A DNA stretch of 41,275 nucleotides from a virus, in the IMG/VR virus record IMGVR_UViG_3300025869_000003, positions 1 through 41,275 of that record; one strand, written 5' to 3'. The position numbers and the translations under genes were made by a program. Positions 13,053 to 28,835 of this stretch are shown here, piece after piece (the stretch's first letter is position 1; the number at the start of each line of letters is the position of its first letter). Below the pieces are notes generated by a model. The model was not told the DNA's origin. It did no database searches and saw only the letters and a list, made by a program, of their open reading frames with translations.

Positions 13053-13431
13053 TTTCTGCTACCTTTCTGTACATAGTTTCCCATTTATAAGTTCTAATCT
13101 TTGTATCGCCATTTGGTGTTATTCTGCGAAACATCACAAATGGTAGTGGGCTTACATTATCCATCATTGCCTTTAGCTGACCCTGACCAGCTACCCAACG
13201 AACATACCATGTGTCAGGATTTTTCACATACCATTGCCCTTGCGGATCTGCGGAACCATCAATTGGTTTTAGCATCATAAAAAGCTGTGGATTGGAGATT
13301 ACAAGACCTCCAATCAAATAGTTATGCATCTCTTTAAAAAACTCTGATTTGTTTTCGTACAAAGAGACCACTTGCTCAAATGGTGGCAAATGCTTGAGCT
13401 TGTTTAAAAGTTCTATTTTTAGGCTACCCAT
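13042..13431 (-). CDS. Hypothetical protein (129 aa from MGSLKIELL)
   Basis: An ATG at 13431 shares one base with the tail-fibre stop (TGATG junction). The longer 13458 start would overlap the fibre gene by 28 nt. Confidence 0.5.
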   Translation of the reverse strand: MGSLKIELLNKLKHLPPFEQVVSLYENKSEFFKEMHNYLIGGLVISNPQLFMMLKPIDGSADPQGQWYVKNPDTWYVRWVAGQGQLKAMMDNVSPLPFVMFRRITPNGDTKIRTYKWETMYRKVAENEV

Positions 13432-14849
13432 CACAAAGCTGAAATGATGAATGCCCATAATTCATCATACCTTACCGACATTTCTTCCTTCTTAGTTGCC
13501 CCCTCAAACTCGGCAGTCTCTTGCTTGCGGTTGCCGTCCTCATCTTCACCAACCCAAACATCGTATTTCTTGAGGATTCCGTATTTTGATGGGTCTAAAC
13601 CTTCATCAATAAAGGCTTGCTCTAAGTCTTGAGCGATAATTCCAAAGTGAGTTTTAGCTCTCTCTTTTTTGCTTTCAACTGCGATCTTGTATTTGAATTT
13701 TCGGATCAAACCTTTCGCTTTAACCGCTACTCTTTTCTCAACCTCATCCAACTCCTCAATATCAGTTTTTAAGTCTCGGTCTGAACTTGTATCTACTGCA
13801 TAACCAGTAAAGATTCTACCCCATCTTCTAGTAGGTATCCCGAAGGTATACTCAAATGAATATGGTAAAACTGATGATGTGTAGAAAATGTTCGCACTAC
13901 TAGTATCTTGGTATGCTTGGAATCTAAATTTTAATCCATTGTCGTAGAAGAATGGGGGCCAAGCTCCTACGATTTTTTGAAATCTGAAGTCGTACTCCAA
14001 AGCATCAAAACCGACACCTCCTGTAAATCTGCTCCAATTTGCAAAATGTTCATGCTGAACAACACCGGGATTTCCTTCAAAGCCATTGATCGTTGGATGA
14101 TATGAATAAACCGATTGTTTGATCGTAGCAAAATTATTAGAGGCGTAAGAAACACCATTTATAGTTTTACTTGGTGTACCTCCATTAGATGTGTAAAGAC
14201 CTCGATGACCTTGTGTACCATCGGGCCACTCCCGAAGGTCTTGATGAATATTTAGAACCAAAGCTCCATCAGAATGACTCGTGTTGTATTCTTCTGCATC
14301 GATGTATAAATTTTTATCAATCGTTACACTATACCCACTTTCTTGAGTAGCGTTGCCAAGAGCAACTTCACCACTAGTATTTTGATTTGAACCTCCACCG
14401 CTACTCGCGCTCAAGCCATCTAACTTAGTCTTATCAGTAGAAGACATAAAACCAGCGCTTGATGAACTTGCATTACTATGAGTGTGAGCGGATGGAGTAA
14501 CTGTTAAGCCACTCGCAAGCTTTGAAGAATCTATAGCTCCATTTGCAATTTGAGTAGAAGTTACTGATTGGTTAACCAACTTATCTCCATTGATGGAATT
14601 AGAGGTAAAATTGTTATTATTGATTACAATAGTATCGTTCCCTGAGATTGCATCAGATGCCAATTTTTCAGATGTAATTCCACCATCCTTGATCTTCAAA
14701 TATCCATCTGCATGAACCTCAAGTGTTGAATCATCAGTTGTGTTTCCAGCTCCAGCAACAAACTGGGCATTGTCCACGTGTTCATTTAAATTATTTGCAG
14801 TAACAGAAGAGCCTTCTGCGTAAGTTGTTCCTTTGTTTAAAATAGCCAT
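13431..14849 (-). CDS. Tail fibre with a C-terminal intramolecular chaperone (peptidase S74-type) auto-cleavage domain
   Basis: TSSDRDLKTDIEELDEV...THFGIIAQDLEQAF...VRYDELWAFIISAL matches the S74 chaperone pattern (S-D-x-x-x-K cleavage motif, hiGfiAQev). It also has the fibre motif SAGFMSSTDKTKLDGL and N-terminal KLAS/SKLAS repeats. Confidence 0.8.
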   Translation of the reverse strand: MAILNKGTTYAEGSSVTANNLNEHVDNAQFVAGAGNTTDDSTLEVHADGYLKIKDGGITSEKLASDAISGNDTIVINNNNFTSNSINGDKLVNQSVTSTQIANGAIDSSKLASGLTVTPSAHTHSNASSSSAGFMSSTDKTKLDGLSASSGGGSNQNTSGEVALGNATQESGYSVTIDKNLYIDAEEYNTSHSDGALVLNIHQDLREWPDGTQGHRGLYTSNGGTPSKTINGVSYASNNFATIKQSVYSYHPTINGFEGNPGVVQHEHFANWSRFTGGVGFDALEYDFRFQKIVGAWPPFFYDNGLKFRFQAYQDTSSANIFYTSSVLPYSFEYTFGIPTRRWGRIFTGYAVDTSSDRDLKTDIEELDEVEKRVAVKAKGLIRKFKYKIAVESKKERAKTHFGIIAQDLEQAFIDEGLDPSKYGILKKYDVWVGEDEDGNRKQETAEFEGATKKEEMSVRYDELWAFIISAL

Positions 14850-14851
14850 GA

Positions 14852-17257
14852 TTAAGTTACAGATGTGGTTTGTCGGTTAATAATTCTTGAGTCCAGTTTG
14901 ACTGCCCTGACATAGGGTCTGCCTTTGGTTGGAGTAATTGTTGCAGAGCAACCATACCCTCTTAGCCTGACGCTTGATCGAATGCTGGTATCTTCATTAG
15001 AGTCTAATTCTGCTCCAAGTAGGGTATCCACACTTCTAGCAGATCTTACTGAATCAGGATCAGTTGTTTGAAATTGAATTGTTCCATTACTCTTGGAAAA
15101 AGGGCTAGATTTCATATGAACTTCAGCCCTATTAAAGTTCTTTCTATTGATCGTCTTAAACGCGTATTCCCTTGTTCTTAGTTCGCTTGAGACATCAAGT
15201 ATTTGAGGTGATGCAGTAGCTGTCGTTATGCTGATCTGATCACCGCCCTCATATCCTTCGTATTTGTGGATAGATCCACTTGAACTGATAAGGTATAAAA
15301 AGTTTTGAGATCCCTCTCTACCAACTACCATATCTCTGACATTGAATGTCAGGCTGTTAATTGAATCGATTGATTCCCAGCCTTGGTTGATGAAATTGTA
15401 AACAAGGATGTGAGAATTTTCTACTGCTCCATCTAAAGGTACTGCCAAGAAATATCGGTTATCGAAATAGACTCCAGTCGCCTGATCAACATACTGCTGG
15501 TTGATCCTTTGCATGGTTGGAGTGATCGGCTCTGATAATGGAACTTCTAGTCCACGAAGATTGTACTCATCCATAAAGGTAAGTGCGTACACACCTTGGT
15601 CGCTAAGAAAGATCATCTTGTTTGCGACCTGGGCTACTGAGTTTCTTGACGCACATCCTAGATCAGGAGTGATCACATTAACCTGAACATCCTGAAGGGA
15701 TCCGCTTACTCCATTTAGACGATGGACGGATCGCCTACCGAAAACCACCAAGGTGTTTTCGGTAAAAGGTTCAATTGCTGTGATGAAGTCTGAACTGCCT
15801 CCGGTTATTTTAAATTGATTCCCGATTACATCATAAGTGTCAGAATCCAAAATGTCAGAAGCGATGATTTCATCTGTAGTTGGACGCTTTGTTGGATTTG
15901 AATCAGAGGTAAAGAAATAAGGAAGCCAAAGCCTCCTCTGATTCAATACTCCAAAGGGGGCAGCAGGTTGGTGAATAAAGTAAGATATTGGAGTCCGTTG
16001 TGATAAGACGAGCAACTCACTTGCGGTGTCCTCTACTGCTAAATTAAACTCAAATGAATCAGCAGTTGTGGATGAGACTTTAACTTTTGTATCAGCAAGA
16101 TTCGAGAAATTACCCTCCCCTTTCACAATGGTTAATTCCTGACCAAGTTCTAACCCATGATTGGTCTCATTGATAGTTACCACTCCATTTGCTGATGTCG
16201 CGTTAGAATCAATAATGTAACTGGGCATTGTATACTGACCGCTTTTTACATTAGTGAAATTAGAGAAGTAACCAGCGCTTGCTCCAAAGACATTGTAAGT
16301 TTCAGAGCCACTATTTTCTATCTCATAGGTGAAGCTATTAGCTGTTGCTGATGTTACTAAATAAGCCCCATTGGGATTTGTTGTGAAGTTTTGTATTCCT
16401 GAAATAGTGACATAGTCATTACCATTTAAACCATGTCCGGTCGCATTAATCGTAACTACACTCCCACTTAAAGAAGCGCTAGTGATTAATGCCGTTGATA
16501 AAATAGGCGTTGAGACCAATGTTGTTTTATCTTGCCGGAATATAAAAAGCTTACTGAAGGCTTGAAGCAACTGACATCGCTTAGTTACGCGTTCACCTGA
16601 TGGATAATTAGCTCTAAACTCTAGCTTGTCCTTGAGTCTAAGTATAGAGCAGTAGCTATCTGTGGCTGTGAAGATAAAATCATCAATAAACTCAGAGCTT
16701 GGGTCTGAGAATAATGCAGACCCAAATACACTAGTGGCTGAACCTTGATCTAATAAAGTAAAATCAAGTTTTGTAGAAATTCTTGATCCTCCATCAGCAA
16801 TTGAATTTTCAGAACAAACGAAAAATTCATCTCCTCCAACCTGAGCAAATTTAATCTCTTTGTTTACAAAGCTAATTGAGGAGATTGTGTAAGTTCCATT
16901 TGGGTCTGTAGTAAATCCAGTAATGCCTTCAATGGTTATTTGATTTCCGACCTTAAAGCTTCTATTCGGGCTAAAGCGTAAAGTTATTGTTATTACATCA
17001 TTTTCCCTATTTGCCTTGGTTATAACAAACGGCAGTAAAGTAGAGTTTTGATCTAGTGTAATTTTACCAGCAAGAGTTTCGACTCCCTTTCTAGGTTGCC
17101 AAGTTCCATCAATATCCATTCGTCCATTTTTACTTAATTGAACTTCTCCAGCCTGAAGTTGTGATGGGCGAACACGACTATTCATTCTGTTAAAGAATGT
17201 ATCACCCTCTTCGATATAAGGGTCATCTAATTTGCCATATGCCCGGTAACGACTCAT
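14852..17257 (-). CDS. Large tail structural protein (801 aa; tail tubular B / nozzle-like) with three internal ~50-aa repeats
   Basis: The size and the position upstream of the fibre fit this role. The repeats are VITITLRF..GNQITIEGITGFTTDPNGTYTISS, VVTINATGHGLNGNDYVTISGIQNFTTNPNGAYLVTS and VVTINETNHGLELGQELTIVKGEGNF. No family-level motif was confirmed. Confidence 0.45.
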   Translation of the reverse strand: MSRYRAYGKLDDPYIEEGDTFFNRMNSRVRPSQLQAGEVQLSKNGRMDIDGTWQPRKGVETLAGKITLDQNSTLLPFVITKANRENDVITITLRFSPNRSFKVGNQITIEGITGFTTDPNGTYTISSISFVNKEIKFAQVGGDEFFVCSENSIADGGSRISTKLDFTLLDQGSATSVFGSALFSDPSSEFIDDFIFTATDSYCSILRLKDKLEFRANYPSGERVTKRCQLLQAFSKLFIFRQDKTTLVSTPILSTALITSASLSGSVVTINATGHGLNGNDYVTISGIQNFTTNPNGAYLVTSATANSFTYEIENSGSETYNVFGASAGYFSNFTNVKSGQYTMPSYIIDSNATSANGVVTINETNHGLELGQELTIVKGEGNFSNLADTKVKVSSTTADSFEFNLAVEDTASELLVLSQRTPISYFIHQPAAPFGVLNQRRLWLPYFFTSDSNPTKRPTTDEIIASDILDSDTYDVIGNQFKITGGSSDFITAIEPFTENTLVVFGRRSVHRLNGVSGSLQDVQVNVITPDLGCASRNSVAQVANKMIFLSDQGVYALTFMDEYNLRGLEVPLSEPITPTMQRINQQYVDQATGVYFDNRYFLAVPLDGAVENSHILVYNFINQGWESIDSINSLTFNVRDMVVGREGSQNFLYLISSSGSIHKYEGYEGGDQISITTATASPQILDVSSELRTREYAFKTINRKNFNRAEVHMKSSPFSKSNGTIQFQTTDPDSVRSARSVDTLLGAELDSNEDTSIRSSVRLRGYGCSATITPTKGRPYVRAVKLDSRIINRQTTSVT

Positions 17258-17397
17258 TTTTTAAGCAACTCCCAAATCTTGATGCTCATGTAAATGATGG
17301 TTGCTAGACCAGCAATAATACCGACTATGGCGTGGATTTGCCCTAAGCCGTATGAGGCAAATGTACCAGTCATTCCAAATATCGTTGCTCTATCCAT
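17254..17397 (-). CDS. Small membrane protein (47 aa) absent from the ORF track; holin-like or virion membrane-active peptide
   Basis: My own reverse-strand translation is MDRATIFGMTGTFASYGLGQIHAIVGIIAGLATIIYMSIKIWELLKK. Its TGA overlaps the ATG of the 801-aa gene (ATGA at 17254..17257). Confidence 0.5.
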   Translation of the reverse strand: MDRATIFGMTGTFASYGLGQIHAIVGIIAGLATIIYMSIKIWELLKK

Positions 17398-17439: not shown

Positions 17440-17982
17440 ATGAAAATAAGAAGTTTCATAGGTAGTTTTTGGTTTTATATCTTAAGCCTGTTGTACCCTC
17501 TTTATGAGGTGTTAAAAAACTTTGAAGATTCGTGGACATTTTTTGATTTTTTGGCTCATGGTTTTGTGACATTTCTAGGGTCTTGTTTATTTCTTGTAAT
17601 TGGATGTTTTCTCTTGGCTCAGTTTGAAGACAAATTTATGAAATGCCCGAAGTGCGACACAAAGGGAGGACACAAAGAATTGGGACGAGGGGAGGCATAT
17701 TCGACTTTGACTTTTAAAGGGCTGTGGCAATGTTGGATGTGTAAGCATAATTGGTATCCAGCTGGTAACCCTAAAGAAGGGGTTGAATGCCCAAAATGTA
17801 ATAAGAAAGGCGGGACATTTATTTATGATGAACTTGTTCGTGATATTCATAAAAGTCCGCCAAACAGCTATCCTATATCTACTATCGAAACGCTCGAAAA
17901 TTGTTTTAAATGCTCTGATTGTGGTCATGAATTTCTAGGCAAAGAGATCGAGTATGAAGATCAGAATCATAAGAATAAGTAG
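17440..17982 (+). CDS. Membrane protein with two N-terminal TM helices and two zinc ribbons
   Basis: Hydrophobic segments FWFYILSLLYPL and FVTFLGSCLFLVIGCFLLA. Duplicated CPKC(D/N)xKGG ... CWMC / CFKCSDC motifs give four CxxC pairs. The gene lies opposite to the surrounding late operon. Confidence 0.6.
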   Translation: MKIRSFIGSFWFYILSLLYPLYEVLKNFEDSWTFFDFLAHGFVTFLGSCLFLVIGCFLLAQFEDKFMKCPKCDTKGGHKELGRGEAYSTLTFKGLWQCWMCKHNWYPAGNPKEGVECPKCNKKGGTFIYDELVRDIHKSPPNSYPISTIETLENCFKCSDCGHEFLGKEIEYEDQNHKNK

Positions 17983-18087
17983 GCAAGTGATCATCTTTCC
18001 TCGCTTGGTTAGGGATTTGTATTTTTCAGTTAGTAGTTTGAGGTTTTTCATCTTTACATACTAAAAATTTAGATATTATTATTTTTT

Positions 18088-18462
18088 ATGGGATTAATGA
18101 ATTGTACTGACTGTGGGGCAAAACACTCTGATGCTAATGGAACGATATGCCCAAATTGTGGCAGAAAACACAAAGTTGGTTTTTTTGATCTTTCGGATGA
18201 GGAAAAACAACAACAGGAAATCGAATCTTTGATCACACAAGAGCTTGATTATGTAACCGACAACTTTAATGATTTGCGTCATAAGTGGAGAGATAACCCC
18301 TATGCATTAGAGTATATTGATAAATTGGATAAAATGCGCGAAGGGAAGATGAGCTCGAAACAATTTGGAATTATGATTATGATTGTGGTGGTGGTTATAT
18401 TTATTTCGATTGCTTATTCAGTAATTTCAATTTTTTGGGACGCATTCTCCAAGACCTTCTGA
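18088..18462 (+). CDS. N-terminal zinc-ribbon protein with a C-terminal TM anchor
   Basis: CTDCGAKHSDANGTICPNCG followed by the C-terminal helix FGIMIMIVVVVIFISIAYSVISIFW. Confidence 0.6.
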   Translation: MGLMNCTDCGAKHSDANGTICPNCGRKHKVGFFDLSDEEKQQQEIESLITQELDYVTDNFNDLRHKWRDNPYALEYIDKLDKMREGKMSSKQFGIMIMIVVVVIFISIAYSVISIFWDAFSKTF

Positions 18463-18472
18463 TATATCATCA

Positions 18473-18892
18473 TCATTTCGTCGGAAAAGGTGGACGAGTT
18501 AGGTGTTTTTGAGCCTCAGACCTCGAACATTTTCGAGCTACAAATATTGGGATCGCAAGGTAGCAAAGAAGAACTACAAAAGCTCCTATCAGGATTCGTT
18601 TGATTGTGGTTGTGAATGATTCAAATCCGCTGGCGTGTTGCTCCATTCCCTTCTCGACCAACTTTTGTACATCGCCATGAGATAAAGCTGAAATGGTTTC
18701 TCTCGCCTCTTCAATTTCCGCATTACCTTTAACAACCTCACCTATCAATGCTCCACCTCCAGCTCCAAGAGCAGATCCAACTGGGCCACCTAATGATCCA
18801 GCTCCACCGCCAACTACAGCTCCCATAGTTGGATACCATTGCTTCATTGAACAACCAGCAAGAAGAGTCAGGCATATGATTAATAGTTTCAA
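18473..18892 (-). CDS. Lipoprotein with a glycine zipper and a C-terminal TM helix (unimolecular-spanin-like topology)
   Basis: Lipobox LTLLAGC after a TTG start that overlaps the sulfotransferase stop. It has the glycine zipper GAVVGGGAGSLGGPVGSALGAGGGALIG and the C-terminal TM ILIGAFVVLLCYLAIPIFVA. Confidence 0.55.
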   Translation of the reverse strand: MKLLIICLTLLAGCSMKQWYPTMGAVVGGGAGSLGGPVGSALGAGGGALIGEVVKGNAEIEEARETISALSHGDVQKLVEKGMEQHASGFESFTTTIKRILIGAFVVLLCYLAIPIFVARKCSRSEAQKHLTRPPFPTK

Positions 18893-19536
18893 AATGTGTA
18901 ACCTCCTAGCTCTACATCTCTCGCAAACAAAGTTGCTATTCTTTCGGCTAACTCATCGTCGTAGTAATTCCTATAATCGCCTCTTTTGGTAGTGTTGATT
19001 TTCTTGGGCTTAGGTAGTTTAGTGAAGGAACAAAAGTCATCCCATTGGTCTTCTATCCTGAACCATTTACCTTCGCCTTCTAGCCATGAATATTGGTCAT
19101 CATCCTGACCCCATGCTCGACAAGTTTTTTCGTTGTATTCAAACTGCCTTCCATGTCCATCTACGAAGAATCCACCATCCATCCAAGATTCTTTGAAACC
19201 TTGCTTTGTTAAGATTCCATGATCTATCTGACCCCAATCCTGATCTAGGTTTTTAGAAGCGTTTTTAAGGTTGTAGGTATAAATTGATAATGCCCTATCC
19301 CAAGGATTCCGTAACAATGCAACTGGGGTTAATCCCTTTACTTCAGGACGCTCTGACCAATAGTTCCATTTGTTATGATGAGCCTGAGGTTTAACCTCAA
19401 ATGCATCGACTTGGTAATGAGATCTTTCGCTTTCAAAATCAGGATTACTATACCTGAGAAAAGGAGCCTCTACAGATGTTCCAGCATTCTTGGGAACATG
19501 AACAAAAGCCCAGGTATTTACCTTGCTATATAGCAT
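18889..19536 (-). CDS. Sulfotransferase (Sulfotransfer_2-like, PAPS-dependent)
   Basis: FVHVPKNAGTSV is a 5'-phosphosulfate loop of the hiPKtgGTS type. LLRNPWDRALSIY is a 3'-phosphate motif of the RdPxxRxxS type. The C-terminal NTTKRGDYRNYYDDELAERIATLFARDVELGGY matches the family's tail pattern. The ATG at 19536 is preferred over the TTG at 19542. Confidence 0.7.
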   Translation of the reverse strand: MLYSKVNTWAFVHVPKNAGTSVEAPFLRYSNPDFESERSHYQVDAFEVKPQAHHNKWNYWSERPEVKGLTPVALLRNPWDRALSIYTYNLKNASKNLDQDWGQIDHGILTKQGFKESWMDGGFFVDGHGRQFEYNEKTCRAWGQDDDQYSWLEGEGKWFRIEDQWDDFCSFTKLPKPKKINTTKRGDYRNYYDDELAERIATLFARDVELGGYTF

Positions 19537-20329
19537 TGGCAAACTCCTTTAGTTCGTCCGGCAACTTGGGAAATATGATCTCTTTCAATAGATCATATCC
19601 TTTGATTAGCCCTTTATCGGCATGAGCATAAGTTTCAGGGAAGGAATGGAAATGAACTGACTTAACCTTATCCCAATTTTCAACCGAATCCTGAAGACTG
19701 AGATTCCCACGATTCCATGTTTTAGCGAATCTCCAAAAACCAACATTATGATTCTTGCTAAATGTCCTTATGTCGAATTGCTCGAACATATGGATCAAAC
19801 CCTCTTGTTCATAGAACTTAGATCGAGTTAGATAGACATCTCTCCACGCTTGTGGAAAGTCTTTTGATTTTGTCCAAAGGTAACCAGCATTGAACGCTCC
19901 ATATGTTCGGTTTTGCTTTACCTTATCCTCAACATGGAAGTGAGGTGAAATCATCAATTCCATTGATCGATCAATATCCTCATTGATAGGCTTTATCAAA
20001 ACTATGTCGGCATCAACAAAGGTAGTTTCATCAGTTGATTTTAATGCCCACTCGATGCAATCCATTTTGGATAAAATGATAGATTTGGAATGAAAATCAT
20101 TTTGGTCTACCACATGACGAACAAGCCTATCTTTACGCTCTAAGTTTTCAGGCTCAAGATTGACTCTATACTCGATATTTTTGAACCTAAGACTTTCCAA
20201 GAAAGTCTTAGTTGATATATCGCAAGATACGAATACCGGGCAGTCGTAGAACTGACGAATGCTTTTAATGAGCAAGGCGACTTCTCGCTTTGCCCTATCG
20301 TTAGCGCAGACTGAGAAGGATTTGATCAT
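19526..20329 (-). CDS. Glycosyltransferase, GT-A fold (GT8-like) candidate
   Basis: DxD motif FVDADIVLIKPI, downstream GAFNAGYLW (compare the GT8 fNaGv motif), and an N-terminal beta-alpha start FSVCANDRAKREVALLIKSI. It forms an ATGA overlap with the upstream gene. Confidence 0.5.
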   Translation of the reverse strand: MIKSFSVCANDRAKREVALLIKSIRQFYDCPVFVSCDISTKTFLESLRFKNIEYRVNLEPENLERKDRLVRHVVDQNDFHSKSIILSKMDCIEWALKSTDETTFVDADIVLIKPINEDIDRSMELMISPHFHVEDKVKQNRTYGAFNAGYLWTKSKDFPQAWRDVYLTRSKFYEQEGLIHMFEQFDIRTFSKNHNVGFWRFAKTWNRGNLSLQDSVENWDKVKSVHFHSFPETYAHADKGLIKGYDLLKEIIFPKLPDELKEFANAI

Positions 20330-20982
20330 ATGTTTCTTTGAGCAAGATTTAGATTGGTAGTATGATATGAAGGATAGGTATTAACTGAGACTTTGTTTTG
20401 AGATTCGATTCGCTCAAATCTTTCCATTGCCTCTGCTAGATACTCTTGAGCTTTTTGTAGTTCGACTAATGCTTTGTCGCTTTGCCCATCTGCCAAGAAA
20501 TGGTCATGCATTGCGTAACTAAGTAACGCCCACTCCATGAATGCCGGAATATCTGTCCTACCTTGACCTGAAAAATATCCCTCTCCGTAGTCGTCTGCTG
20601 GAACCTTCGATCCCACCACAAATACAGATGTGGCTGTAGTTGATCTTGGTAGAACTAAATAACCATCGATCAAAGTGTGATCGATTCGTATAGCTCCGGT
20701 ATCTTCATATGGGTTTTTGTTATAAACCCCGAAGACATCATAGAGATCAATAGCATCATCTATTCTGACAGCATTTTCAGCTTTTAAGGTATCGGTACTA
20801 ATTACTTGAATTGTCTTTTCGACAACTACCAACAGATCACTCCACTTTGCCTTCACCCAAATCTGTTTTATTCGGTGATTGAGTGAATTACTGAAATCGG
20901 TTTTTTCCGAATCCAGCAACAAGTCTACACCTCTTAATGAAGTGTATTTCTTAAGTAGATCTTGGTAGGTAATCGTCCTCAC
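20326..20982 (-). CDS. Virion structural protein (218 aa; head-tail adaptor / tail tubular A-like by position)
   Basis: The call rests only on its position downstream of the capsid gene and on a GTG start overlapping the upstream stop (GTGA). Confidence 0.3.
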   Translation of the reverse strand: MRTITYQDLLKKYTSLRGVDLLLDSEKTDFSNSLNHRIKQIWVKAKWSDLLVVVEKTIQVISTDTLKAENAVRIDDAIDLYDVFGVYNKNPYEDTGAIRIDHTLIDGYLVLPRSTTATSVFVVGSKVPADDYGEGYFSGQGRTDIPAFMEWALLSYAMHDHFLADGQSDKALVELQKAQEYLAEAMERFERIESQNKVSVNTYPSYHTTNLNLAQRNI

Positions 20983-21346: not shown

Positions 21347-22375
21347 TTAAACTGAGATGATTGATCCCAATGCTCTTGGGTTCAAAACACACAAGGTAAG
21401 AATCGCCCTAGTGAGAAAACGCTCACCGCCTCCACCAACATCAGGAAGATCCTGAACTGATATAGGCTGAAGCATTTTGAGACTTACATTGTCATCTTCA
21501 GGAATAAGAACTCCCGATTTCTTTGATAATGCGGTAAGTCCCGATCCACTCGTCCTGTTAATAAAAAGGTCAGGAATCACTACGATTTTTCCGTAATCTC
21601 CGATGATTTCTACAACAGAGAGGGTCAAAGTAGTACCTTGAATATTTGCATCAAAGTTTGCCTGAGTTCCTCCAACGATATTGGTTGCTCGACTGAATCC
21701 AGTAAGAGCATTCATGATCGAACTTCCGCAGAACAAGCGGTAGTTTTGGGCTTTACCTCCAGCCTCGTATATAGACTGAACAACAGTCCGAAACGCACCT
21801 TCGGTGAGAGTTCCTGATCCGTGTCTACTTCCGCTTACCGATCTAAATCCTTGCTTTGCAGTAGTACTGAAAAACCCACTAGTCGATGCTGGATCTGTAA
21901 CATGAAGAAGACCTGACATTTTTGAGCCAGCAGTAGAGGATCCAGCAGATTGTACATTAGAAGATCCGATTGCACCTTCTATGTCAGTTTTGAGCTGGGT
22001 CAAAACCCTAGCTTTTGACGCCGCCAAAAGTGAGGTCTGTGGGCCACTTACATCGATAGCCTCTGCGATAGGACTAACACTCGATTGTCTCTGAAAGGTT
22101 TGAATTAAGTTTCCTAATCGTACGCGATTTGCAATTTCATCTGTGTAAGAAGCAGAAGGAAATGCTAAATCTGCTCCATCGATTGGAGGAGTTCCAAATG
22201 ATGGATTGTCGAGAGTATCTGCAATCCAGCTTGTTTCGACCGCTTTTGGCGCGGCTGATTGTGGGAGAAGAGAGTACATTGGAGTGTCTTCGGGTGCGAC
22301 ACGTTTGAGTTGGTTGCTGAGGTCTTCCCTCGCCCCCTGAACTGAAGTTATTCCGTATGATGTTGCTTGAGCCAT
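21347..22375 (-). CDS. Major capsid protein (HK97-fold type)
   Basis: 342 aa, directly after the scaffold-like gene. The N terminus GAREDLSNQLKRVAPEDTPMYSLLPQSAAPKAVETSWIADTL matches the R.EDL...I..i.p.dTP......a.....eW..D.L start I associate with podovirus capsid families. Confidence 0.7.
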   Translation of the reverse strand: MAQATSYGITSVQGAREDLSNQLKRVAPEDTPMYSLLPQSAAPKAVETSWIADTLDNPSFGTPPIDGADLAFPSASYTDEIANRVRLGNLIQTFQRQSSVSPIAEAIDVSGPQTSLLAASKARVLTQLKTDIEGAIGSSNVQSAGSSTAGSKMSGLLHVTDPASTSGFFSTTAKQGFRSVSGSRHGSGTLTEGAFRTVVQSIYEAGGKAQNYRLFCGSSIMNALTGFSRATNIVGGTQANFDANIQGTTLTLSVVEIIGDYGKIVVIPDLFINRTSGSGLTALSKKSGVLIPEDDNVSLKMLQPISVQDLPDVGGGGERFLTRAILTLCVLNPRALGSIISV

Positions 22376-23512: not shown

Positions 23513-23935
23513 ATGAGATTTACATTAATCATTCTTTTTATAACTACATTCATGATTGGCTGTATGTCGGAACAGCAAAAGAAAGAAAATAGCCAAGCCT
23601 TTTGGCTCATGATGGAGGAGTCAAAACAAGCCAAGTCAGATTTAGAGGCAAAATTCGTCGAAGGTGGACTTGAATCACTTTTTAAAAGAAGATTTGGAAA
23701 TGAGGAATCGATAACACTCCGTGAAGTTATTAAATTTATTGAATACCACTTTGAAGACGAAATTAATGACGCTGTTCGCCAATCTTATCTTAGTCACTTC
23801 AAACTTTCTGAACAAAGAAATCGTAGGATGACCGATGACTTAATTCAAATAATGCTAGATGGCGCAAAAAAATCTGTTGATAAAACTGTCTACGAAATTG
23901 CCAAGGATTTAGTTAAAAAGGGAGGATTCCTTTAG
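23513..23935 (+). CDS. Lipoprotein (140 aa), moron-like
   Basis: Signal peptide plus lipobox MRFTLIILFITTFMIGC. The gene lies opposite to the late operon. Confidence 0.6.
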   Translation: MRFTLIILFITTFMIGCMSEQQKKENSQAFWLMMEESKQAKSDLEAKFVEGGLESLFKRRFGNEESITLREVIKFIEYHFEDEINDAVRQSYLSHFKLSEQRNRRMTDDLIQIMLDGAKKSVDKTVYEIAKDLVKKGGFL

Positions 23936-24139
23936 ATGAAAAACAAAACTATCTTTTTTTTCGTTATGCTTATAGTTGGGTGCGGAGAAAGTGATAGGGA
24001 GAGACCTGATTATTACGAAAATGATTACGATTGGGGGTATGAAAATGGAAGCGATGATGGATACTCTTCAGGCTGGGACAAAGGGTATGAACAAGGTTAT
24101 CTAGATGCAAAAAAGGGGAAGGGTCAAATTAACCGATAG
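23936..24139 (+). CDS. Small lipoprotein (67 aa) with GY-rich repeats
   Basis: Lipobox FFFVMLIVGC, a gggagga SD upstream, and the repeat DWGYENGSDDGYSSGWDKGYEQGY. Confidence 0.6.
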   Translation: MKNKTIFFFVMLIVGCGESDRERPDYYENDYDWGYENGSDDGYSSGWDKGYEQGYLDAKKGKGQINR

Positions 24140-24141
24140 AT

Positions 24142-24348
24142 TCACTCCGACTCATAAGTGAGTGATTTGATAATCCGATCAACGGATGCAATTTCTCCAC
24201 CTAGTCGAGCTAAAGCTTGGGGATTTTCTAAAACCTCAGGCTGGTGAAAGTCATTAATTAAGACTTCTCTTTCCTTGGATAGATTTTCAAGAATCACCTT
24301 AAAATCATCGTTATGCCTTAATGCTTTTACTGCTTCTGCTAATGTCAT
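24142..24348 (-). CDS. Hypothetical protein (68 aa)
   Basis: This is the only - strand ORF filling the gap between the two + strand genes. No motif was recognised. Confidence 0.45.
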   Translation of the reverse strand: MTLAEAVKALRHNDDFKVILENLSKEREVLINDFHQPEVLENPQALARLGGEIASVDRIIKSLTYESE

Positions 24349-24354
24349 TTTTAT

Positions 24355-24765
24355 TTGTTAGGAAATATGTTTAAGGCTATTAAAATTAATATGAAAAAGT
24401 TTTTTAAAAATCCTTGGATGAGAATTTGGTTACTTTGTAGTTTTCTGTGGATAGTAGGATTTAATGTTTGGTGTTATTATAGTTGGGAAAAAACAGCTTC
24501 AGTTGCTAAATTATTACTCGCTCAACAGGAAGAAGCTGGCGTAACTTATTCACGGGAGGTAAGCTCGGAAAATAGGATTAAGTATGATAATTATTGGCTA
24601 TTCTATGTTGCTAAGGGGAGCTTTAGCTTGAGCTTTAGTGTACTCGACTCACAATTTGGAATACATTGGTTCTATATATCGTGTTTTGGCCCAAGTGTGG
24701 TTGGTTTAATTTTTATATATGGATTGCGGTGGATCATTGTTGGTTTTAAGTCACAGACAACTTGA
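24355..24765 (+). CDS. Polytopic membrane protein (start uncertain: TTG 24355, ATG 24367 or ATG 24391)
   Basis: Hydrophobic helices IWLLCSFLWIVGFNVWCYY and WFYISCFGPSVVGLIFIYGLRWIIV. Confidence 0.5.
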   Translation: MLGNMFKAIKINMKKFFKNPWMRIWLLCSFLWIVGFNVWCYYSWEKTASVAKLLLAQQEEAGVTYSREVSSENRIKYDNYWLFYVAKGSFSLSFSVLDSQFGIHWFYISCFGPSVVGLIFIYGLRWIIVGFKSQTT

Positions 24766-27125: not shown

Positions 27126-27411
27126 TCCTTTTAACTTTCAATGGCTTGTCTAAAAAGTGGTTGCCGTTAGCTCTAACAACACATTTGGAGACATTGTCAA
27201 AGTCGCCAAAATGGATAAATATGATCCTTGGATTGGGGCATAATTTGTAGACCCACGCTTTGAGTTCCTCACCTTGTAGCTTTTTATCAGCCTTTAATAT
27301 TCTTCCTACGCTGGCAGTACTTATTCCTAGATCCTTAGCAATCTTGGCGTTAGTGACTCCATCAGCTTTTAGCTTTAAAACTTCCTTAATTTTGTCTCCT
27401 GAAATTTTCAT
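27088..27411 (-). CDS. HTH DNA-binding protein (107 aa); regulator or small-terminase-like candidate
   Basis: GVTNAKIAKDLGISTASVGRILKA is an HTH. The ATG at 27411 forms an ATGA overlap with the methyltransferase stop. Confidence 0.5.
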   Translation of the reverse strand: MKISGDKIKEVLKLKADGVTNAKIAKDLGISTASVGRILKADKKLQGEELKAWVYKLCPNPRIIFIHFGDFDNVSKCVVRANGNHFLDKPLKVKRIETSDEELFREI

Positions 27412-28835
27412 TTTCCTGTAACCAAACTTATTCTCCTTGCTATCCACTCCATGACATGAGCGGTGATTCCATTTCCTAACATCCGGTATCTTGGTGCGTC
27501 TTTGAGTTCTATAACCTTACCTTTCTTGATCCATTTGTTGTCCACCAGCTCAAGGTCTTCCCTGAACTTAGTGAAATCATCTGATAGACCCTGAAGACGC
27601 TCTGCCTCCAAAGGAGTGATTTTACGGACAATCAAATCATGTGATACCGCATGAGTGTCACCAATTGTTAAAGTGTATTGAACTCCATCATCGCTGATAC
27701 CTAGTCCATTAGTGTCGCATTTTTCATTTCGTCCAATTGATTTACCAGCGAGAGCGACTGCATGAGCAAAACCCATTCCTTCACCTCCTTGCTGGGCGCG
27801 TAATGTTAAAGATACATCTTCTTTTGCCTTTGGAGTATGATCTCCATTCCAGCAACAAACTTTTGGCCCAGTTGCATTACTGATGCCTGATGCACAAGTT
27901 AAAGTTGGAGCAATATCTCCAGTTACAACTCCAGCATAGACATTACAGCCCTGAGTTAAGATGGGTAAATTATTCCCTCCAGTACCAGCCTTCTTTGTAA
28001 GAGTGGGGCTAATTTCTCCAGTCTCTTTGATGCGACTATCCTGAGCATGGTTTTCGTAGCAAGTGCATTGAGTTACCATCTCAAAGCTGTCAGCTCTTGA
28101 GTAGTCATTGCAACTTGTTTGAAGTGTCGAAGCTACTTCTTTGCAGTAGATTCGAGCGCTTGCCTTAGGATCGGGGGGAGACTTTCCAACTTTCCTCGTT
28201 TTTCTGCCCTCCTTAAAATGCCCTGACACGCGGTGTTTGAAAGTGAATATTTCTTCAATGGCTTCGGATCCAATATCGCAGAGAGTCCCAAGTACAAACA
28301 CTCGCAACCTCCGCTGAGGGACTGCTTGCCTAACTCCTCGTTTGTCGCTCCCTCGATTCTGTGGAAAACTGAAGGCGACGTGTTGAGAGTCCAAGTGCGT
28401 CCATCCGATCTCACGATGCCCGACTTCGGATAGGTCTTTGATGAACCTAGCAAAGTCGTTTTTATCTCCGCTGGACATGAGTCCGGCAACGTTTTCGGCA
28501 AGCGAGAGGATAAGCCCACGCTCTTTAAGTCCTGAAATAATTCTGATTGCTTCTCCATAAAGTGTAGATCGGTCTCCTTCTAATCCTTTCCGTTGACCAG
28601 CAACGGAAAGATCTTGGCATGGGAATGAGTATAAAACCCCATCGGCATCGGGTAGGTCATCAGCGGTGACTTTTTCAATATCTGAGAATATTGGAACACC
28701 GGGAAAGTTGTATGCGAAAACCCCTGCTGCTTGTTTGTCGTTCTCGATACCAGCGACAATCTCATGTCCAGCTCGTACTAATCCAAGGTCACCACAACCA
28801 GCTCCGCTAAACATTGAAATCCAGCGAAATGCCAT
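27408..28835 (-). CDS. DNA (cytosine-5)-methyltransferase with a long variable (target-recognition) region
   Basis: Motif I FSGAGCGDLG, motif IV FPCQDLSVAG, motif VI LAENVAGL, motif VIII PQRRLRVFVLG, motif IX-like RKITPLEAERLQGL and motif X GNGITAHV. About 220 aa separate motifs VIII and IX. Confidence 0.9.
   Translation of the reverse strand: MAFRWISMFSGAGCGDLGLVRAGHEIVAGIENDKQAAGVFAYNFPGVPIFSDIEKVTADDLPDADGVLYSFPCQDLSVAGQRKGLEGDRSTLYGEAIRIISGLKERGLILSLAENVAGLMSSGDKNDFARFIKDLSEVGHREIGWTHLDSQHVAFSFPQNRGSDKRGVRQAVPQRRLRVFVLGTLCDIGSEAIEEIFTFKHRVSGHFKEGRKTRKVGKSPPDPKASARIYCKEVASTLQTSCNDYSRADSFEMVTQCTCYENHAQDSRIKETGEISPTLTKKAGTGGNNLPILTQGCNVYAGVVTGDIAPTLTCASGISNATGPKVCCWNGDHTPKAKEDVSLTLRAQQGGEGMGFAHAVALAGKSIGRNEKCDTNGLGISDDGVQYTLTIGDTHAVSHDLIVRKITPLEAERLQGLSDDFTKFREDLELVDNKWIKKGKVIELKDAPRYRMLGNGITAHVMEWIARRISLVTGK

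What the first reader, a model, noticed from the sequence alone, without database searches (positions are those of the whole stretch)
18473..20329. Glycosyltransferase + sulfotransferase + lipoprotein cassette welded into the virion structural operon
- **What is there:** three consecutive - strand genes sit between the capsid-proximal genes and the tail genes. All three are joined by overlapping start/stop codons: ATGA at 20326..20329, an 11-nt overlap at 19526..19536, and a TTG start over the stop at 18889..18892.
- **267-aa product:** it has a GT-A style DxD (FVDADIVL) and a GT8-like GAFNAGYLW.
- **215-aa product:** it has both PAPS-binding signatures of sulfotransferases (VHVPKNAGTS and LLRNPWDRALSIY) and the family's typical C-terminal tail.
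- **Third product:** a lipobox lipoprotein with a glycine zipper and a C-terminal TM helix.
- **Why it matters:** a sulfotransferase co-translated with virion genes is unusual. The trio suggests a sulfated glycan is made during late infection. The target could be virion proteins (phage-encoded capsid glycosylation is known from some mycobacteriophages) or host envelope polymers, which could serve for receptor masking or superinfection exclusion. I know of no described phage system for sulfated-glycan decoration.
Basis: partly seen in the sequence, partly recalled or inferred. Interest (0 to 1): 0.75.

Follow-up and report, generated by a model that had tools for sequence, protein, structure and literature searches.

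The report
Phage glycosyltransferase–sulfotransferase pair in virion operon
A marine temperate phage carries, inside its virion-gene operon, a sugar-adding enzyme coupled to a sulfate-adding enzyme; the same pairing (often as one fused protein) recurs next to tail-fibre genes in many marine phages, pointing to an undescribed sulfated-sugar modification whose target is still unknown.

Summary
The three overlapping minus-strand genes, their motifs and their start/stop overlaps are as described. The window is a complete, circular, roughly 41-kb temperate marine podovirus-like phage.

- **267-aa protein:** a confident GT-A fold (pLDDT 94.9). Its nearest structures are GT8 glycogenin, LARGE1 and UGGT. 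The DxD is invariant. It belongs to a divergent, apparently viral family that Pfam does not recognise.
- **215-aa protein:** a minimal Sulfotransfer_2-type enzyme with both PAPS-binding motifs conserved.
- **GT–ST coupling:** among 50 non-redundant loci carrying this GT, 43 have a sulfotransferase fused (17), adjacent or within 4 kb. In a sister phage a different sulfotransferase family fills the same slot.
- **Location:** the cassette sits in a hypervariable glycan-enzyme slot inside structural modules. Upstream neighbours are mostly tail-fibre or virion proteins.
- **Lipoprotein:** real, but an independent backbone gene linked to tm47–p801, with unimolecular-spanin-like architecture. It is not a cassette member.

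The GT–ST pair making a sulfated glycoconjugate is well supported. The target is inferred only: virion proteins about 0.45, host envelope glycans about 0.3. No described phage precedent turned up in the searchable literature.

The parts
19526..20329 (-). 267-aa soluble GT-A-fold glycosyltransferase of a divergent, apparently virus-restricted family (the 'A1 family'). It has a DxD at D106/D108, an NAGY motif at 147-150 and an HxH at 226/228.
   Evidence: - ORF.
- 62 homologues found.
- Invariant residues.
- AF2 model pLDDT 94.9, pTM 0.92.
- Foldseek PDB top hits are glycogenin GT8 (E 2.5e-9), LARGE1, UGGT and XXYLT1.
- BFVD top hits are cyanophage and giant-virus GTs at 10-17% identity.
- No Pfam, PHROG or NCBIfam hit.
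- No TM helix.
- 683 cluster representatives among 1.84 billion proteins.
18889..19536 (-). 215-aa soluble PAPS-type sulfotransferase (Sulfotransfer_2-like, minimal size). It has the 5'-PSB motif FVHVPKNAGTS, the 3'-PB motif RNPWDRALS and the conserved C-terminal YYDDEL...GGYxF tail.
   Evidence: - Pfam PF03567: 22.6 bits against a cutoff of 22. PHROG 3347: 7.8e-10, full length.
- Invariant residues H13, G19, R76, N77, P78 and S84; K16 near-invariant.
- AF2 pLDDT 95.8.
- All top-50 Foldseek PDB hits are sulfotransferases, but weak (best E 5.9e-4, TM about 0.4).
- The family profile hits heparan sulfate 2-O-sulfotransferase at E 0.028.
- No TM helix.
20326..20329 (-). ATGA stop/start overlap coupling the upstream 218-aa head-module gene to the GT
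   Evidence: Sequence. The p218–GT adjacency is conserved in all same-lineage loci (L001, L006-L011, L069).
19526..19549 (-). 11-nt GT/ST overlap (19526..19536) together with the ST Shine-Dalgarno AAGGAG (19549..19544)
   Evidence: Sequence. An overlapping or adjacent ST directly downstream of the GT, or fused to it, occurs in 19 of 50 non-redundant loci by the profile searches. With the more sensitive search, the fusions alone number 17.
20326..20982 (-). 218-aa protein of unknown function. It is the last conserved head-module gene before the variable glycan-enzyme slot.
   Evidence: no family hit. Synteny MCP–p98–p218–GT.
18473..18892 (-). 139-aa lipoprotein with a C-terminal TM helix (Lpp). 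It is a neighbour, not a cassette member. It belongs to a conserved family with unimolecular-spanin-like architecture.
   Evidence: - Lipobox LAGC, Gly-zipper (Pfam PF13488, 0.0018, below cutoff), TM helix and basic tail.
- SD AGGAGG 9 nt before the TTG start.
- Linked to tm47–p801 in L001, L006, L010, L011, L018 and L069.
- Variable position relative to the GT in L002, L004, L022, L026 and L066.
- No homologue in GenBank phages.
17254..17397 (-). 47-aa single-TM protein (tm47). It is translationally coupled by ATGA to the 801-aa virion protein and is the backbone partner of Lpp in sister phages.
17440..18462 (+). Two opposite-strand Zn-ribbon membrane-protein genes (180 aa and 124 aa). They are inserted where sister phages carry extra glycan enzymes and a minor-tail-fibre-like gene.

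Best explanation
**Shown**
- The 267-aa and 215-aa genes form a two-enzyme module.
- The first is a soluble GT-A-fold (GT8-like, DxD, presumably metal-dependent) glycosyltransferase.
- The second is a soluble sulfotransferase with both PAPS-binding motifs.
- Both are translationally coupled to each other and to the head-module gene upstream.

**Inferred mechanism**
1. Late in infection the GT transfers a sugar from a nucleotide-sugar donor onto an acceptor in the cytoplasm.
2. The sulfotransferase then O-sulfates that sugar, or a neighbouring one, using host-made PAPS. The phage encodes no recognisable PAPS-synthesis gene.
3. The product is a sulfated glycoconjugate.

**Most likely acceptor (inferred, not shown)**
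- A virion structural protein (tail fibre, tail or capsid), assembled in the same compartment at the same time.
- On this reading progeny virions would carry a small sulfated glycan.

**Cassette variability**
- The slot downstream of p218 is a hypervariable glycan-enzyme cassette in this phage lineage. The window carries its minimal version, GT + ST.

**The third gene**
- The lipoprotein is a separate envelope-spanning backbone protein, possibly a unimolecular spanin.

**Confidence split**
- About 0.85 that GT + ST act together on one glycoconjugate.
- About 0.45 that the target is the virion.
For: **Enzyme identities**
- GT model pLDDT 94.9, with Foldseek hits to GT8, LARGE1 and UGGT at E about 1e-9. 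The DxD is invariant.
- The ST reaches Pfam and PHROG profiles, and its PAPS motifs are invariant. All 50 top structural neighbours are sulfotransferases.

**Functional coupling**
- 17 of 50 non-redundant loci encode GT–ST fusion proteins. An iterative search seeded on the fusion C-terminal domain recovers the window ST at E 2e-14.
- 43 of 50 loci have a sulfotransferase fused, adjacent or within 4 kb.
- In sister phage L010, a Sulfotransfer_4 enzyme (4e-27) occupies the slot in place of the A2-type ST.
- Sulfotransferase families top the Pfam census of the three downstream genes.

**Virion association**
- The order MCP–p98–p218–GT–ST–[variable]–Lpp–tm47–p801 is conserved.
- Sister phages carry a minor-tail-fibre-like gene inside the same slot.
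- In unrelated backbones the three upstream genes are dominated by tail-fibre, tail and virion structural PHROGs.
- Start/stop overlaps and SD sites are present, and there is no promoter-like or terminator-like signal inside the cassette.
- Both enzymes lack TM helices and signal peptides.
- No Gtr-type membrane components are present, and the cassette is about 13 kb from the integrase.
- Relatives also occur on large contigs (50–158 kb) whose neighbours include T4-type prohead protease and PhoH. Lysogenic conversion is a less natural explanation for such phages.

**Precedent**
- Phage-encoded GTs glycosylate mycobacteriophage capsids (Freeman 2023, as summarised in PMC11256854).
Against: - No biochemical or proteomic evidence exists. 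Donor, acceptor and regiochemistry are all unknown.
- Positions next to tail-fibre genes are also classic cargo (moron) hot-spots, so neighbourhood does not prove a virion target.
- The window itself lacks the small fibre gene that sister phages have in the slot.
- A systematic test found no enrichment of Ser/Thr-rich tracts in GT neighbours.
- The phage is temperate (integrase), which is compatible with host-surface conversion.
- Late expression is inferred from gene arrangement only.
- The ST's Pfam score is marginal and its Foldseek TM-scores are low (about 0.4).
- The GT has no sequence-level family membership, and its C-terminal catalytic motifs could not be aligned to GT8.
Confidence: 0.45

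Rival explanations
1. **Host-envelope remodelling.** The GT and ST act at the cytoplasmic face on host LPS, LOS, capsule or S-layer glycan precursors. Infected or lysogenic cells would then display a sulfated, altered surface glycan. That could mask the receptor, exclude superinfecting phages, or stop progeny from adsorbing to debris.
For: - The phage is temperate (integrase).
- Cassette content is hypervariable between close relatives, as O-antigen and capsule loci are.
- Larger relatives' cassettes contain several GTs (GT2, GT4, GT31, GT32, Caps_synth-like) that could build an oligosaccharide.
- Bacterial GT8 enzymes are typically LPS-core transferases (general knowledge).
- Marine-phage GT genes are usually interpreted as host cell-surface modifiers (PMC12801897).
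- Positions next to tail-fibre genes are known cargo hot-spots.
Against: - There is no membrane component, flippase, polymerase or Gtr-like gene, and both enzymes are soluble.
- The pair is not next to int/attP, where classical seroconversion modules sit.
- It is translationally welded to a head-module gene with no internal promoter-like site. That suggests late expression, which is too late for exclusion.
- The family also occurs on large contigs with T4-type head genes nearby.
- The GT family is almost absent from 185,579 representative prokaryotic genomes. The single hit is itself a phage contig.
Confidence: 0.3
2. **Non-glycoconjugate or non-envelope acceptor.** The pair modifies a small metabolite, a lipid (sulfoglycolipid), a cytoplasmic host protein or phage DNA. 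The purpose could be defence evasion or host takeover.
For: - The acceptor is entirely unknown.
- Some structural neighbours of the GT act on cytoplasmic proteins: glycogenin self-glucosylates, and one hit is a Skp1 galactosyltransferase.
- Phage GTs are known to glycosylate DNA (general knowledge; mentioned in PMC12801897).
Against: - The cassette sits consistently within or after structural and tail-fibre genes, not in replication or nucleotide-metabolism modules.
- Co-occurring enzymes are glycan-type GTs and methyltransferases.
- I know of no sulfated DNA modification.
Confidence: 0.12
3. **The first reader's trio.** GT, ST and the lipoprotein form one functional unit. The lipoprotein could be the acceptor, or an envelope anchor or exporter for the sulfated glycan.
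For: - In the window the three genes overlap start to stop.
- Lpp-family genes lie within 1–4 kb of the GT in about 13 of 50 non-redundant loci, across several backbones.
Against: - In sister phages, 0.5–2 kb of variable genes separate the ST and Lpp.
- Lpp lies upstream of the GT in L004, L018, L022 and L026, and downstream in L002 and L066.
- It is absent from all 17 fusion-type loci.
- It is always followed by tm47–p801 in the window's lineage and in L018.
- Its periplasmic location, implied by the lipobox and C-terminal TM helix, is a different compartment from the cytoplasmic enzymes.
Confidence: 0.08

Closest known systems
Mycobacteriophage virion glycosylation (Che8, Rita and other cluster F1 phages; Freeman et al. 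2023, as summarised in PMC11256854)
   Same: - Temperate phages encode their own soluble glycosyltransferases.
- In the mycobacteriophage case, glycans end up covalently attached to virion structural proteins made in the cytoplasm.
   Different: - In the mycobacteriophages the GT genes lie near the 3' end of the genome, away from the structural operon. No sulfotransferase is involved and the host is an actinobacterium.
- Here the GT belongs to a different, unclassified GT-A family. It is obligately paired or fused with a sulfotransferase and sits inside structural or tail-fibre modules of marine phages.
- Glycosylation of these virions has not been shown.
GT8 / GT24 retaining GT-A glycosyltransferases (glycogenin, LARGE1 xylosyltransferase domain, UGGT catalytic domain, XXYLT1)
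   Same: - The overall GT-A fold is shared (Foldseek E about 1e-9, TM 0.55–0.62).
- The DxD lies on the equivalent strand, and K88 aligns with the glycogenin Lys upstream of its DxD.
- An 'FNxG' motif and a C-terminal His are present.
   Different: - Identity is only 10–17%.
- The window protein has no Pfam GT8 hit.
- The C-terminal half finds nothing in the PDB by sequence.
- Profile–profile comparison with the clearly GT8-like second GT of sister phages is not significant.
- Donor, acceptor and stereochemistry are unknown.
Sulfotransfer_2 (PF03567) carbohydrate sulfotransferases (e.g. heparan sulfate 2-O-sulfotransferase, chondroitin 4-sulfotransferases) and PHROG 3347 'galactose-3-O-sulfotransferase'
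   Same: - The 5'-PSB and 3'-PB PAPS-binding motifs are present.
- The conserved C-terminal YYDxE…GY motif is present.
- Profile hits exist to both families.
   Different: - It is much smaller (215 aa) and soluble, lacking the type-II membrane anchor.
- The Pfam score is only marginal.
- It is viral, and frequently fused C-terminally to the A1 GT.
- Its substrate is unknown.
Chlorovirus and giant-virus capsid or fibril glycosylation machinery (e.g. PBCV-1 multidomain GT–GT–methyltransferase). This comparison rests on general knowledge and was not tested here.
   Same: - These viruses encode soluble, eukaryote-like GT families with fused methyltransferase domains that build the virus's own structural glycans in the cytoplasm.
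- Sister cassettes here contain a methyltransferase–GT fusion and GT29-, GT31- and GT32-like enzymes.
   Different: - Those are eukaryotic viruses.
- As far as I know, no sulfotransferase step has been described for them.
- There is no sequence relationship beyond the fold.
Phage seroconversion modules (P22/SfV gtrABC, Sf6 oac; general knowledge)
   Same: A temperate phage carries glycan-modifying enzymes that could change the host surface.
   Different: - gtr modules are membrane proteins (flippase, bactoprenol GT and a GT-C-type transferase). They sit next to int/attP and are expressed in the lysogen.
- Here the enzymes are soluble, lie about 13 kb from the integrase and are welded into the late structural block.
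Unimolecular spanin, T1 gp11 (PMC6139136). This applies to the third gene only.
   Same: - N-terminal outer-membrane lipoprotein signal (the T1 lipobox is LSGC; here it is LAGC).
- C-terminal TM domain.
- Size of roughly 130–140 aa.
- No periplasmic cysteine.
   Different: - There is no sequence similarity.
- By sequence the periplasmic domain is a Gly-zipper followed by a helix, whereas gp11 is predicted to be beta-rich.
- It is not in a recognisable lysis cassette, and no endolysin or holin was identified in the genome.

Membership tests
GT-A fold glycosyltransferase (GT8-like clan) | Rossmann-like GT-A fold | tested here: met
   AF2 model pLDDT 94.9, pTM 0.92. Foldseek PDB gives 88 hits at E<=1e-3. 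The top hits are all GT8, GT24 or LARGE1, with E down to 2.5e-9 and TM 0.5–0.62. BFVD hits are all GTs.
GT-A fold glycosyltransferase (GT8-like clan) | DxD metal/nucleotide-sugar binding motif on the central strand | tested here: met
   FVDADIV. D106 and D108 are invariant in 45 homologues. The motif aligns to glycogenin's FMDADT.
GT-A fold glycosyltransferase (GT8-like clan) | Significant match to the curated GT8 sequence profile (PF01501) | tested here: not met
   The window protein has no Pfam hit at E<=1 other than noise. Only 1 of 45 family members reaches PF01501, at 0.007. hhalign against the GT8-like second GT gives probability 2.3%.
GT-A fold glycosyltransferase (GT8-like clan) | C-terminal catalytic and metal-ligand motifs of GT8 (the DQG-type loop and the third metal ligand His) | tested here: inconclusive
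   Invariant E174, Q175 and H226/H228 are present. Equivalence to the GT8 residues could not be shown, because the C-terminal half-profile finds nothing in the PDB.
GT-A fold glycosyltransferase (GT8-like clan) | Glycosyl transfer from a nucleotide sugar (activity, donor, retaining stereochemistry) | not testable with these tools
   Requires enzymology.
Sulfotransfer_2 (PF03567) PAPS-dependent sulfotransferase | Profile score at or above the curated cutoff | tested here: met
   22.6 bits against a cutoff of 22, which is marginal and covers the N-terminal half. PHROG 3347 matches at 7.8e-10 over the full length. Many homologues carry a precomputed PF03567 annotation.
Sulfotransfer_2 (PF03567) PAPS-dependent sulfotransferase | 5'-phosphosulfate-binding loop (PKxxGT/S) and 3'-phosphate-binding motif (RxPxxR…S) | tested here: met
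   HVPKNAGTS and RNPWDRALS. H13, G19, R76, N77, P78 and S84 are invariant, and K16 is at least 90% conserved.
Sulfotransfer_2 (PF03567) PAPS-dependent sulfotransferase | Sulfotransferase fold | tested here: met
   Model pLDDT 95.8. All 50 best PDB neighbours are sulfotransferases, but the matches are weak (best E 5.9e-4, TM about 0.4).
Sulfotransfer_2 (PF03567) PAPS-dependent sulfotransferase | PAPS-dependent sulfotransfer to a carbohydrate acceptor | not testable with these tools
   Requires enzymology. No PAPS-synthesis gene was recognised in the window, so host PAPS would be needed.
Phage virion glycosylation system (mycobacteriophage type) | Phage-encoded glycosyltransferase(s) | tested here: met
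Phage virion glycosylation system (mycobacteriophage type) | Glycan covalently attached to capsid or tail proteins of purified virions | not testable with these tools
   Needs virion MS and glycan staining. A search for Ser/Thr-rich acceptor tracts next to the GT showed no general enrichment.
Seroconversion module (gtrABC type) | Membrane-embedded GtrA/GtrB/GtrC-type components | tested here: not met
   The GT and ST have no TM helix (maximum Kyte-Doolittle 19-residue window 1.01 and 0.38). No such families appear in the neighbour census.
Seroconversion module (gtrABC type) | Location adjacent to the integrase/attP, with lysogenic expression | tested here: not met
   The integrase is at 33453..34808, about 13 kb away. 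The cassette overlaps head-module genes. Expression was not tested.
Unimolecular spanin (third gene) | N-terminal lipoprotein signal with lipobox Cys | tested here: met
   MKLLIICLTLLAGC. The feature is conserved in all family members. SD AGGAGG lies before the TTG start.
Unimolecular spanin (third gene) | C-terminal transmembrane domain and no periplasmic Cys | tested here: met
   The TM helix spans roughly residues 100–128 (Kyte-Doolittle 2.85) and is followed by a basic tail. There is no Cys between residue 15 and the TM helix. The criteria come from PMC6139136.
Unimolecular spanin (third gene) | Membership of a lysis cassette with holin and endolysin | tested here: not met
   No endolysin or holin family was found anywhere in the window with PHROGs, Pfam or NCBIfam. 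The neighbours are a 47-aa TM protein and a virion protein.
Unimolecular spanin (third gene) | Complements an Rz/Rz1 lysis defect | not testable with these tools
   Requires genetics.

The most novel reading that the evidence does not exclude
Many marine tailed phages, from about 40-kb podoviruses to contigs above 100 kb, use a virus-specific glycosyltransferase–sulfotransferase enzyme pair, often one bifunctional protein encoded right after the tail-fibre genes, to decorate their own fibres or virions with sulfated sugars. This would be the first sulfated-glycan virion decoration in phages. Such a polyanionic coat could tune sticking to sulfated marine gels or mucus. It could also mimic the sulfated algal polysaccharides that hosts such as Verrucomicrobia forage for; the only host clue is one single-cell genome.
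Probability: 0.35. Interest if true: 0.85.

Novelty: new variant of a known kind. Interest (0 to 1): 0.62.

Why it matters
**What is new**
- Phage-encoded glycan chemistry is known in only a few forms: DNA glucosylation, seroconversion and mycobacteriophage capsid glycans.
- Sulfation has not been described for any of these. Sulfotransferase genes in marine phage genomes have been catalogued as auxiliary metabolic genes of unclear function (PMC10580990).

**What the comparison shows**
- These sulfotransferases are not stray metabolic genes. They form one half of a conserved, frequently fused GT–ST module that lives in virion and tail-fibre gene blocks.
- This turns a vague annotation into a specific, testable hypothesis: a sulfated glycoconjugate is made during virion production.

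**Consequences if the target is the virion**
- Virion surface charge, adsorption to marine gels and host recognition in the ocean would all be affected.
- It would also supply compact, soluble, bifunctional GT–ST enzymes for glycoengineering.

**Consequences if the target is the host envelope**
- It would be a new kind of phage-driven surface conversion.

Tried and rejected
1. **DNA-level relatives.** None exist in 50,697 GenBank phage records. The GT has no tblastn hit there, and the ST has only three weak ones.
2. **Curated families for the GT.** Pfam, PHROGs and NCBIfam give nothing. The 540–770-aa fusion proteins also get no Pfam hits, so Pfam is blind to this family. My first motif regex for the fusion ST domain was too strict and was replaced by an iterative search.
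3. **C-terminal GT8 catalytic motifs.** The half-profile search against the PDB found nothing. hhalign against the GT8-like second GT of sister phages was not significant.
4. **Mucin-like acceptor idea.** One siphovirus (L002) has TTTQAP repeats in the tail protein upstream of its cassette. A systematic scan showed no enrichment of Ser/Thr-rich tracts next to the GT, so this was rejected as a general rule.
5. **The sister phages' fibre as obligatory substrate.** The window lacks that gene.
6. **The trio as a unit.** Rejected on synteny.
7. **Spanin context.** No endolysin or holin was recognised, and the lipoprotein has no GenBank phage homologue. The spanin reading stays an architecture-based guess.
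8. **Host identification.**
   - The window has no tRNA gene.
   - The genome-contig scan returned a single hit, a contig of the same phage lineage in a Verrucomicrobia single-cell genome.
   - This is suggestive only.
9. **Promoter and terminator scan.** Nothing above background.
10. **Literature.** No paper on phage sulfotransferase function or sulfated phage glycans is in the searchable library. Freeman 2023 itself is not held.

Full report
**1. The observation**

The window is a complete phage genome. Its ends share an exact 127-bp overlap, so it assembles as a circle of about 41.15 kb. The identical 267-aa protein occurs on 22 contigs, ten of them 20–50 kb, from several marine metagenomes.

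The genome encodes an integrase (33453..34808), a DNA methyltransferase, a primase/helicase and an exonuclease. It also has an SU10-type major capsid protein (21347..22375), a tail-fibre protein (13431..14849) and several large virion proteins. No GenBank phage is similar at the DNA level. The capsid protein is about 25–31% identical to those of diverse podoviruses.

The junctions read directly from the sequence:
- ATGA at 20326..20329 joins the upstream 218-aa gene to the GT.
- The GT stop and the ST start overlap by 11 nt. AAGGAG lies 7 nt before the ST ATG.
- TTGA at 18889..18892 joins the ST to the lipoprotein. AGGAGG lies 9 nt before the lipoprotein TTG.

All quoted motifs are present. 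Some gene callers choose a downstream ATG and lose the signal peptide of the third protein. Every homologue keeps the signal peptide and lipobox, so the TTG start is right.

**2. The glycosyltransferase**

The 267-aa protein has no significant Pfam, PHROG or NCBIfam hit. It does have 62 metagenomic homologues. In an alignment of 45 of them, the invariant residues are D106/D108 (the DxD), K88, S128-P-H130, N147-A-G-Y150, E174-Q175, H194-N…G-F-W-R200 and H226/H228.

With that alignment AlphaFold2 gives a very confident model, pLDDT 94.9 and pTM 0.92. Foldseek against the PDB returns only GT-A enzymes of the GT8/GT24 group:
- glycogenin at E 2.5e-9
- LARGE1
- the UGGT catalytic domain
- XXYLT1
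- a Skp1 galactosyltransferase

TM-scores are 0.5–0.62 at 10–18% identity. A profile search of PDB sequences finds only glycogenin, below significance (E 0.25), with the DxD and the upstream Lys aligned. Among predicted viral structures the best matches are unnamed or generic GTs of cyanophages and giant viruses at 10–17% identity.

Two attempts to show sequence-level GT8 membership failed:
- The C-terminal half-profile finds nothing in the PDB.
- Profile–profile comparison with a clearly GT8-like second GT from sister phages is not significant.

So this is a GT-A fold enzyme nearest to GT8, in a family of its own. An exhaustive profile search finds 683 cluster representatives among 1.84 billion proteins, many of them multidomain. 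A pattern scan of 185,579 representative prokaryotic genomes returns a single hit. That hit is a 40-kb contig of the same phage lineage in a Verrucomicrobia single-cell genome. The family therefore looks essentially viral.

**3. The sulfotransferase**

- The 215-aa protein reaches Pfam Sulfotransfer_2 just above its cutoff (22.6 against 22 bits). It matches PHROG 3347 over its full length at 7.8e-10.
- In 45 homologues that include cellular Sulfotransfer_2 proteins, the 5'-phosphosulfate loop (H13, K16, G19) and the 3'-phosphate motif (R76, N77, P78, S84) are invariant or nearly so. The C-terminal YYDDE…GY tail is also conserved.
- The model is confident (pLDDT 95.8). All 50 nearest PDB structures are sulfotransferases, but the scores are weak (best E 5.9e-4, TM about 0.4), as expected for a minimal and divergent member.
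- Both enzymes lack hydrophobic segments and so are soluble cytoplasmic proteins.

**4. GT and ST are one functional module**

I fetched 69 related loci and reduced them, with the window, to 50 whose GTs are less than 85% identical. The counts are:

| Sulfotransferase arrangement | Loci (of 50) | Source |
|---|---|---|
| Single ORF with GT domain followed by ST domain | 17 | |
| Separate homologous ST, very often overlapping the GT stop codon | 21 (L058 also carries a fusion) | |
| Further ST detected only with the family profile | 3 | |
| Sulfotransfer_4-type enzyme instead | 3 | |
| **Any sulfotransferase fused, adjacent or within 4 kb** | **43** | |

Supporting details:
- An iterative search seeded on a fusion's C-terminal domain converges on the window's ST at E 2e-14.
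- The Sulfotransfer_4 case includes a sister phage of the window, L009/L010, at E 4e-27.
- A Pfam census of the three genes downstream of the GT is headed by four different sulfotransferase families. Methyltransferases and further GT families follow.

Gene fusion, conserved adjacency and replacement by a non-homologous sulfotransferase together make a strong case that the GT's product or acceptor is sulfated.

**5. Genomic setting**

In the window's own lineage (L001, L006–L011, L069) the order is fixed as MCP – p98 – p218 – GT – … – Lpp – tm47 – p801. The stretch between the GT and Lpp is hypervariable:

| Loci | Content between the GT and Lpp |
|---|---|
| window | ST only |
| L001 | ST + a small fibre-like protein |
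| L006, L008, L069, L007 | ST + a second GT8-like GT + the fibre-like protein |
| L011 | ST + a methyltransferase–GT fusion + the fibre-like protein |
| L010 | DUF6625 + Sulfotransfer_4 + a GT32-like enzyme |
| L019 | six enzymes |

The fibre-like protein matches the repeats of annotated minor tail and tail-fibre proteins. In a related podovirus (L018) the cassette lies after the p801 homologue instead.

In unrelated backbones (siphoviruses with tape-measure genes, and contigs of 50–158 kb) the three upstream genes are dominated by tail-fibre, tail, collagen-like minor tail and virion structural PHROGs. So the module is recurrently embedded in, or placed directly after, virion and fibre genes. 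Within the window's cassette I found no promoter-like or terminator-like signal above background.

**6. The lipoprotein**

The 139-aa protein has five recognisable parts:
- a lipobox, LAGC
- a Gly-zipper
- a conserved helix, ETIxALxxGDV
- a strong C-terminal TM helix
- a basic tail

The same architecture is conserved in homologues from podovirus, siphovirus and large-phage backbones. It does not travel with GT–ST:
- Spacing and order vary.
- It is missing from about three quarters of the loci.
- In the window's lineage and in L018 it is always followed by the 47-aa TM protein and p801.

Its architecture (outer-membrane lipoprotein signal, C-terminal TM domain, about 140 aa, no periplasmic Cys) matches the definition of unimolecular spanins such as T1 gp11 (PMC6139136). 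Against that reading, it shares no sequence similarity with gp11, and no holin or endolysin could be recognised anywhere in the genome. I rate 'u-spanin-like envelope-spanning protein' as a plausible guess (about 0.35) and 'member of the sulfoglycan cassette' as unlikely (about 0.08).

**7. Mechanism and target**

*Shown:*
- two soluble enzymes with the catalytic signatures of a nucleotide-sugar-dependent GT-A transferase and a PAPS-dependent sulfotransferase
- genetic coupling between them
- location inside structural modules

*Inferred:*
1. They are made with the late proteins.
2. The GT adds a sugar.
3. The ST sulfates it using host PAPS, since no PAPS-synthesis gene was recognised in the phage.

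*Arguments for a virion-protein acceptor:*
- The pair is welded to head-module genes and is not near int/attP.
- Fibre genes lie inside or next to the cassette.
- Fusion forms sit directly after giant tail-fibre genes on large contigs. Some of these have T4-type head genes nearby, where lysogenic conversion is a less natural explanation.
- No membrane or export components are present.
- Cassette enzymes are Golgi-like families (GT29, GT31, GT32, methyltransferase fusions), reminiscent of giant-virus capsid glycosylation (general knowledge).
- Mycobacteriophage virion glycosylation is a precedent (PMC11256854, citing Freeman 2023).

*Arguments for a host-envelope acceptor:*
- The phage is temperate.
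- The cassette is hypervariable.
- Tail-fibre-adjacent sites are cargo hot-spots.
- The usual reading of marine-phage GT genes is host cell-surface modification (PMC12801897).

*Tests that might have tipped the balance:*
- Enrichment of Ser/Thr-rich acceptor tracts near the GT was negative.
- The window lacks the small fibre gene present in its sisters.

My estimates are about 0.45 for the virion, 0.30 for the host envelope and 0.12 for another acceptor.

**8. Novelty and verdict**

I found no paper describing the function of a phage sulfotransferase or a sulfated phage glycan. [quoted passage not shown]

The finding is a new variant of a known kind, phage-encoded glycan modification. It differs in three respects:
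- a virus-specific GT-A family
- an obligate, often fused, sulfotransferase partner
- residence in virion and tail-fibre gene blocks of marine phages

Noticed in passing
window 17440..17982 (+) and 18088..18462 (+): Two opposite-strand genes encode zinc-ribbon proteins with TM helices (180 and 124 aa). They sit between the lipoprotein and the tm47/p801 genes, antisense to the late operon. They are absent from sister phages at this position. A promoter-like site (TTTACA-18-TATTAT) lies at 18053..18082, just before the 124-aa gene. They may be a moron or superinfection-exclusion insert.
   Followed up: partly
window 23513..24765 (+): A second antisense insert lies between the scaffold-like and portal-like genes. 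It holds two small lipobox proteins (140 aa with MIGC, 67 aa with IVGC) and a 136-aa membrane protein. None has a family hit.
   Followed up: partly
window 1..127 and 41149..41275: The ends share an exact 127-bp terminal overlap. The window is therefore a circularly assembled, complete phage genome of about 41,148 bp. Near-identical contigs of about 41.2 kb occur in several marine metagenomes.
   Followed up: yes
L002 11480..12022 (+) and 8149..9996 (+): In a marine siphovirus, the GT–ST pair is followed by a 181-aa ORF matching eukaryote-type sialyltransferase family GT29 (PF00777, 5e-14). The gene caller missed it and called a different frame. The pair is preceded by a 615-aa tail-region protein with mucin-like TTTQAP repeats. 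A GT2 gene and a PD-(D/E)xK gene follow.
   Followed up: partly
L069 (CACFTI010000022.1, 40,216 bp): The only hit in 185,579 representative prokaryotic genomes is a phage-sized contig of the same lineage (GT 74% identical). It lies in a single-cell genome labelled uncultured Verrucomicrobia AG-908-P09. This is the sole host clue, and it could reflect infection, attachment or co-sorting.
   Followed up: no
window 18473..18892 (-); L002, L004, L018, L022, L026, L066 homologues: The lipoprotein belongs to a conserved family of about 140 aa found in very different marine phage backbones. The shared parts are a lipobox, a Gly-zipper, an ETIxALTxGDV helix, a C-terminal TM helix and a basic tail. It has no homologue in GenBank phages. 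It is a candidate new unimolecular-spanin family.
   Followed up: partly
window 14852..17257 (-) versus L001 12692..14362: The virion protein p801 is about 245 aa longer than its 556-aa uvMED homologue. It carries an E1_FCCH-like domain (PF16190, 5e-7) with repeated 'ITGFTTDPNGTYTISS'-type segments. This looks like lineage-specific domain insertion in a tail or adaptor protein.
   Followed up: no
window 27408..28835 (-): A 475-aa C5 DNA methyltransferase sits between the terminase-like and portal-like genes, inside the packaging/head block. The position is conserved in the uvMED relative L001.
   Followed up: no
L011 10001..11467 and L007 throughout: The GT, ST, portal and MCP genes are split into two to four ORFs in these IMG/VR contigs. 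This probably reflects sequencing frameshifts rather than decay, but it was not checked.
   Followed up: no
window 3929..10129 (-): A 2066-aa protein has no Pfam or PHROG hit at all. It is conserved (41–65% identity) in sister phages at the end of the tail block. It is presumably an internal or ejection virion protein.
   Followed up: no
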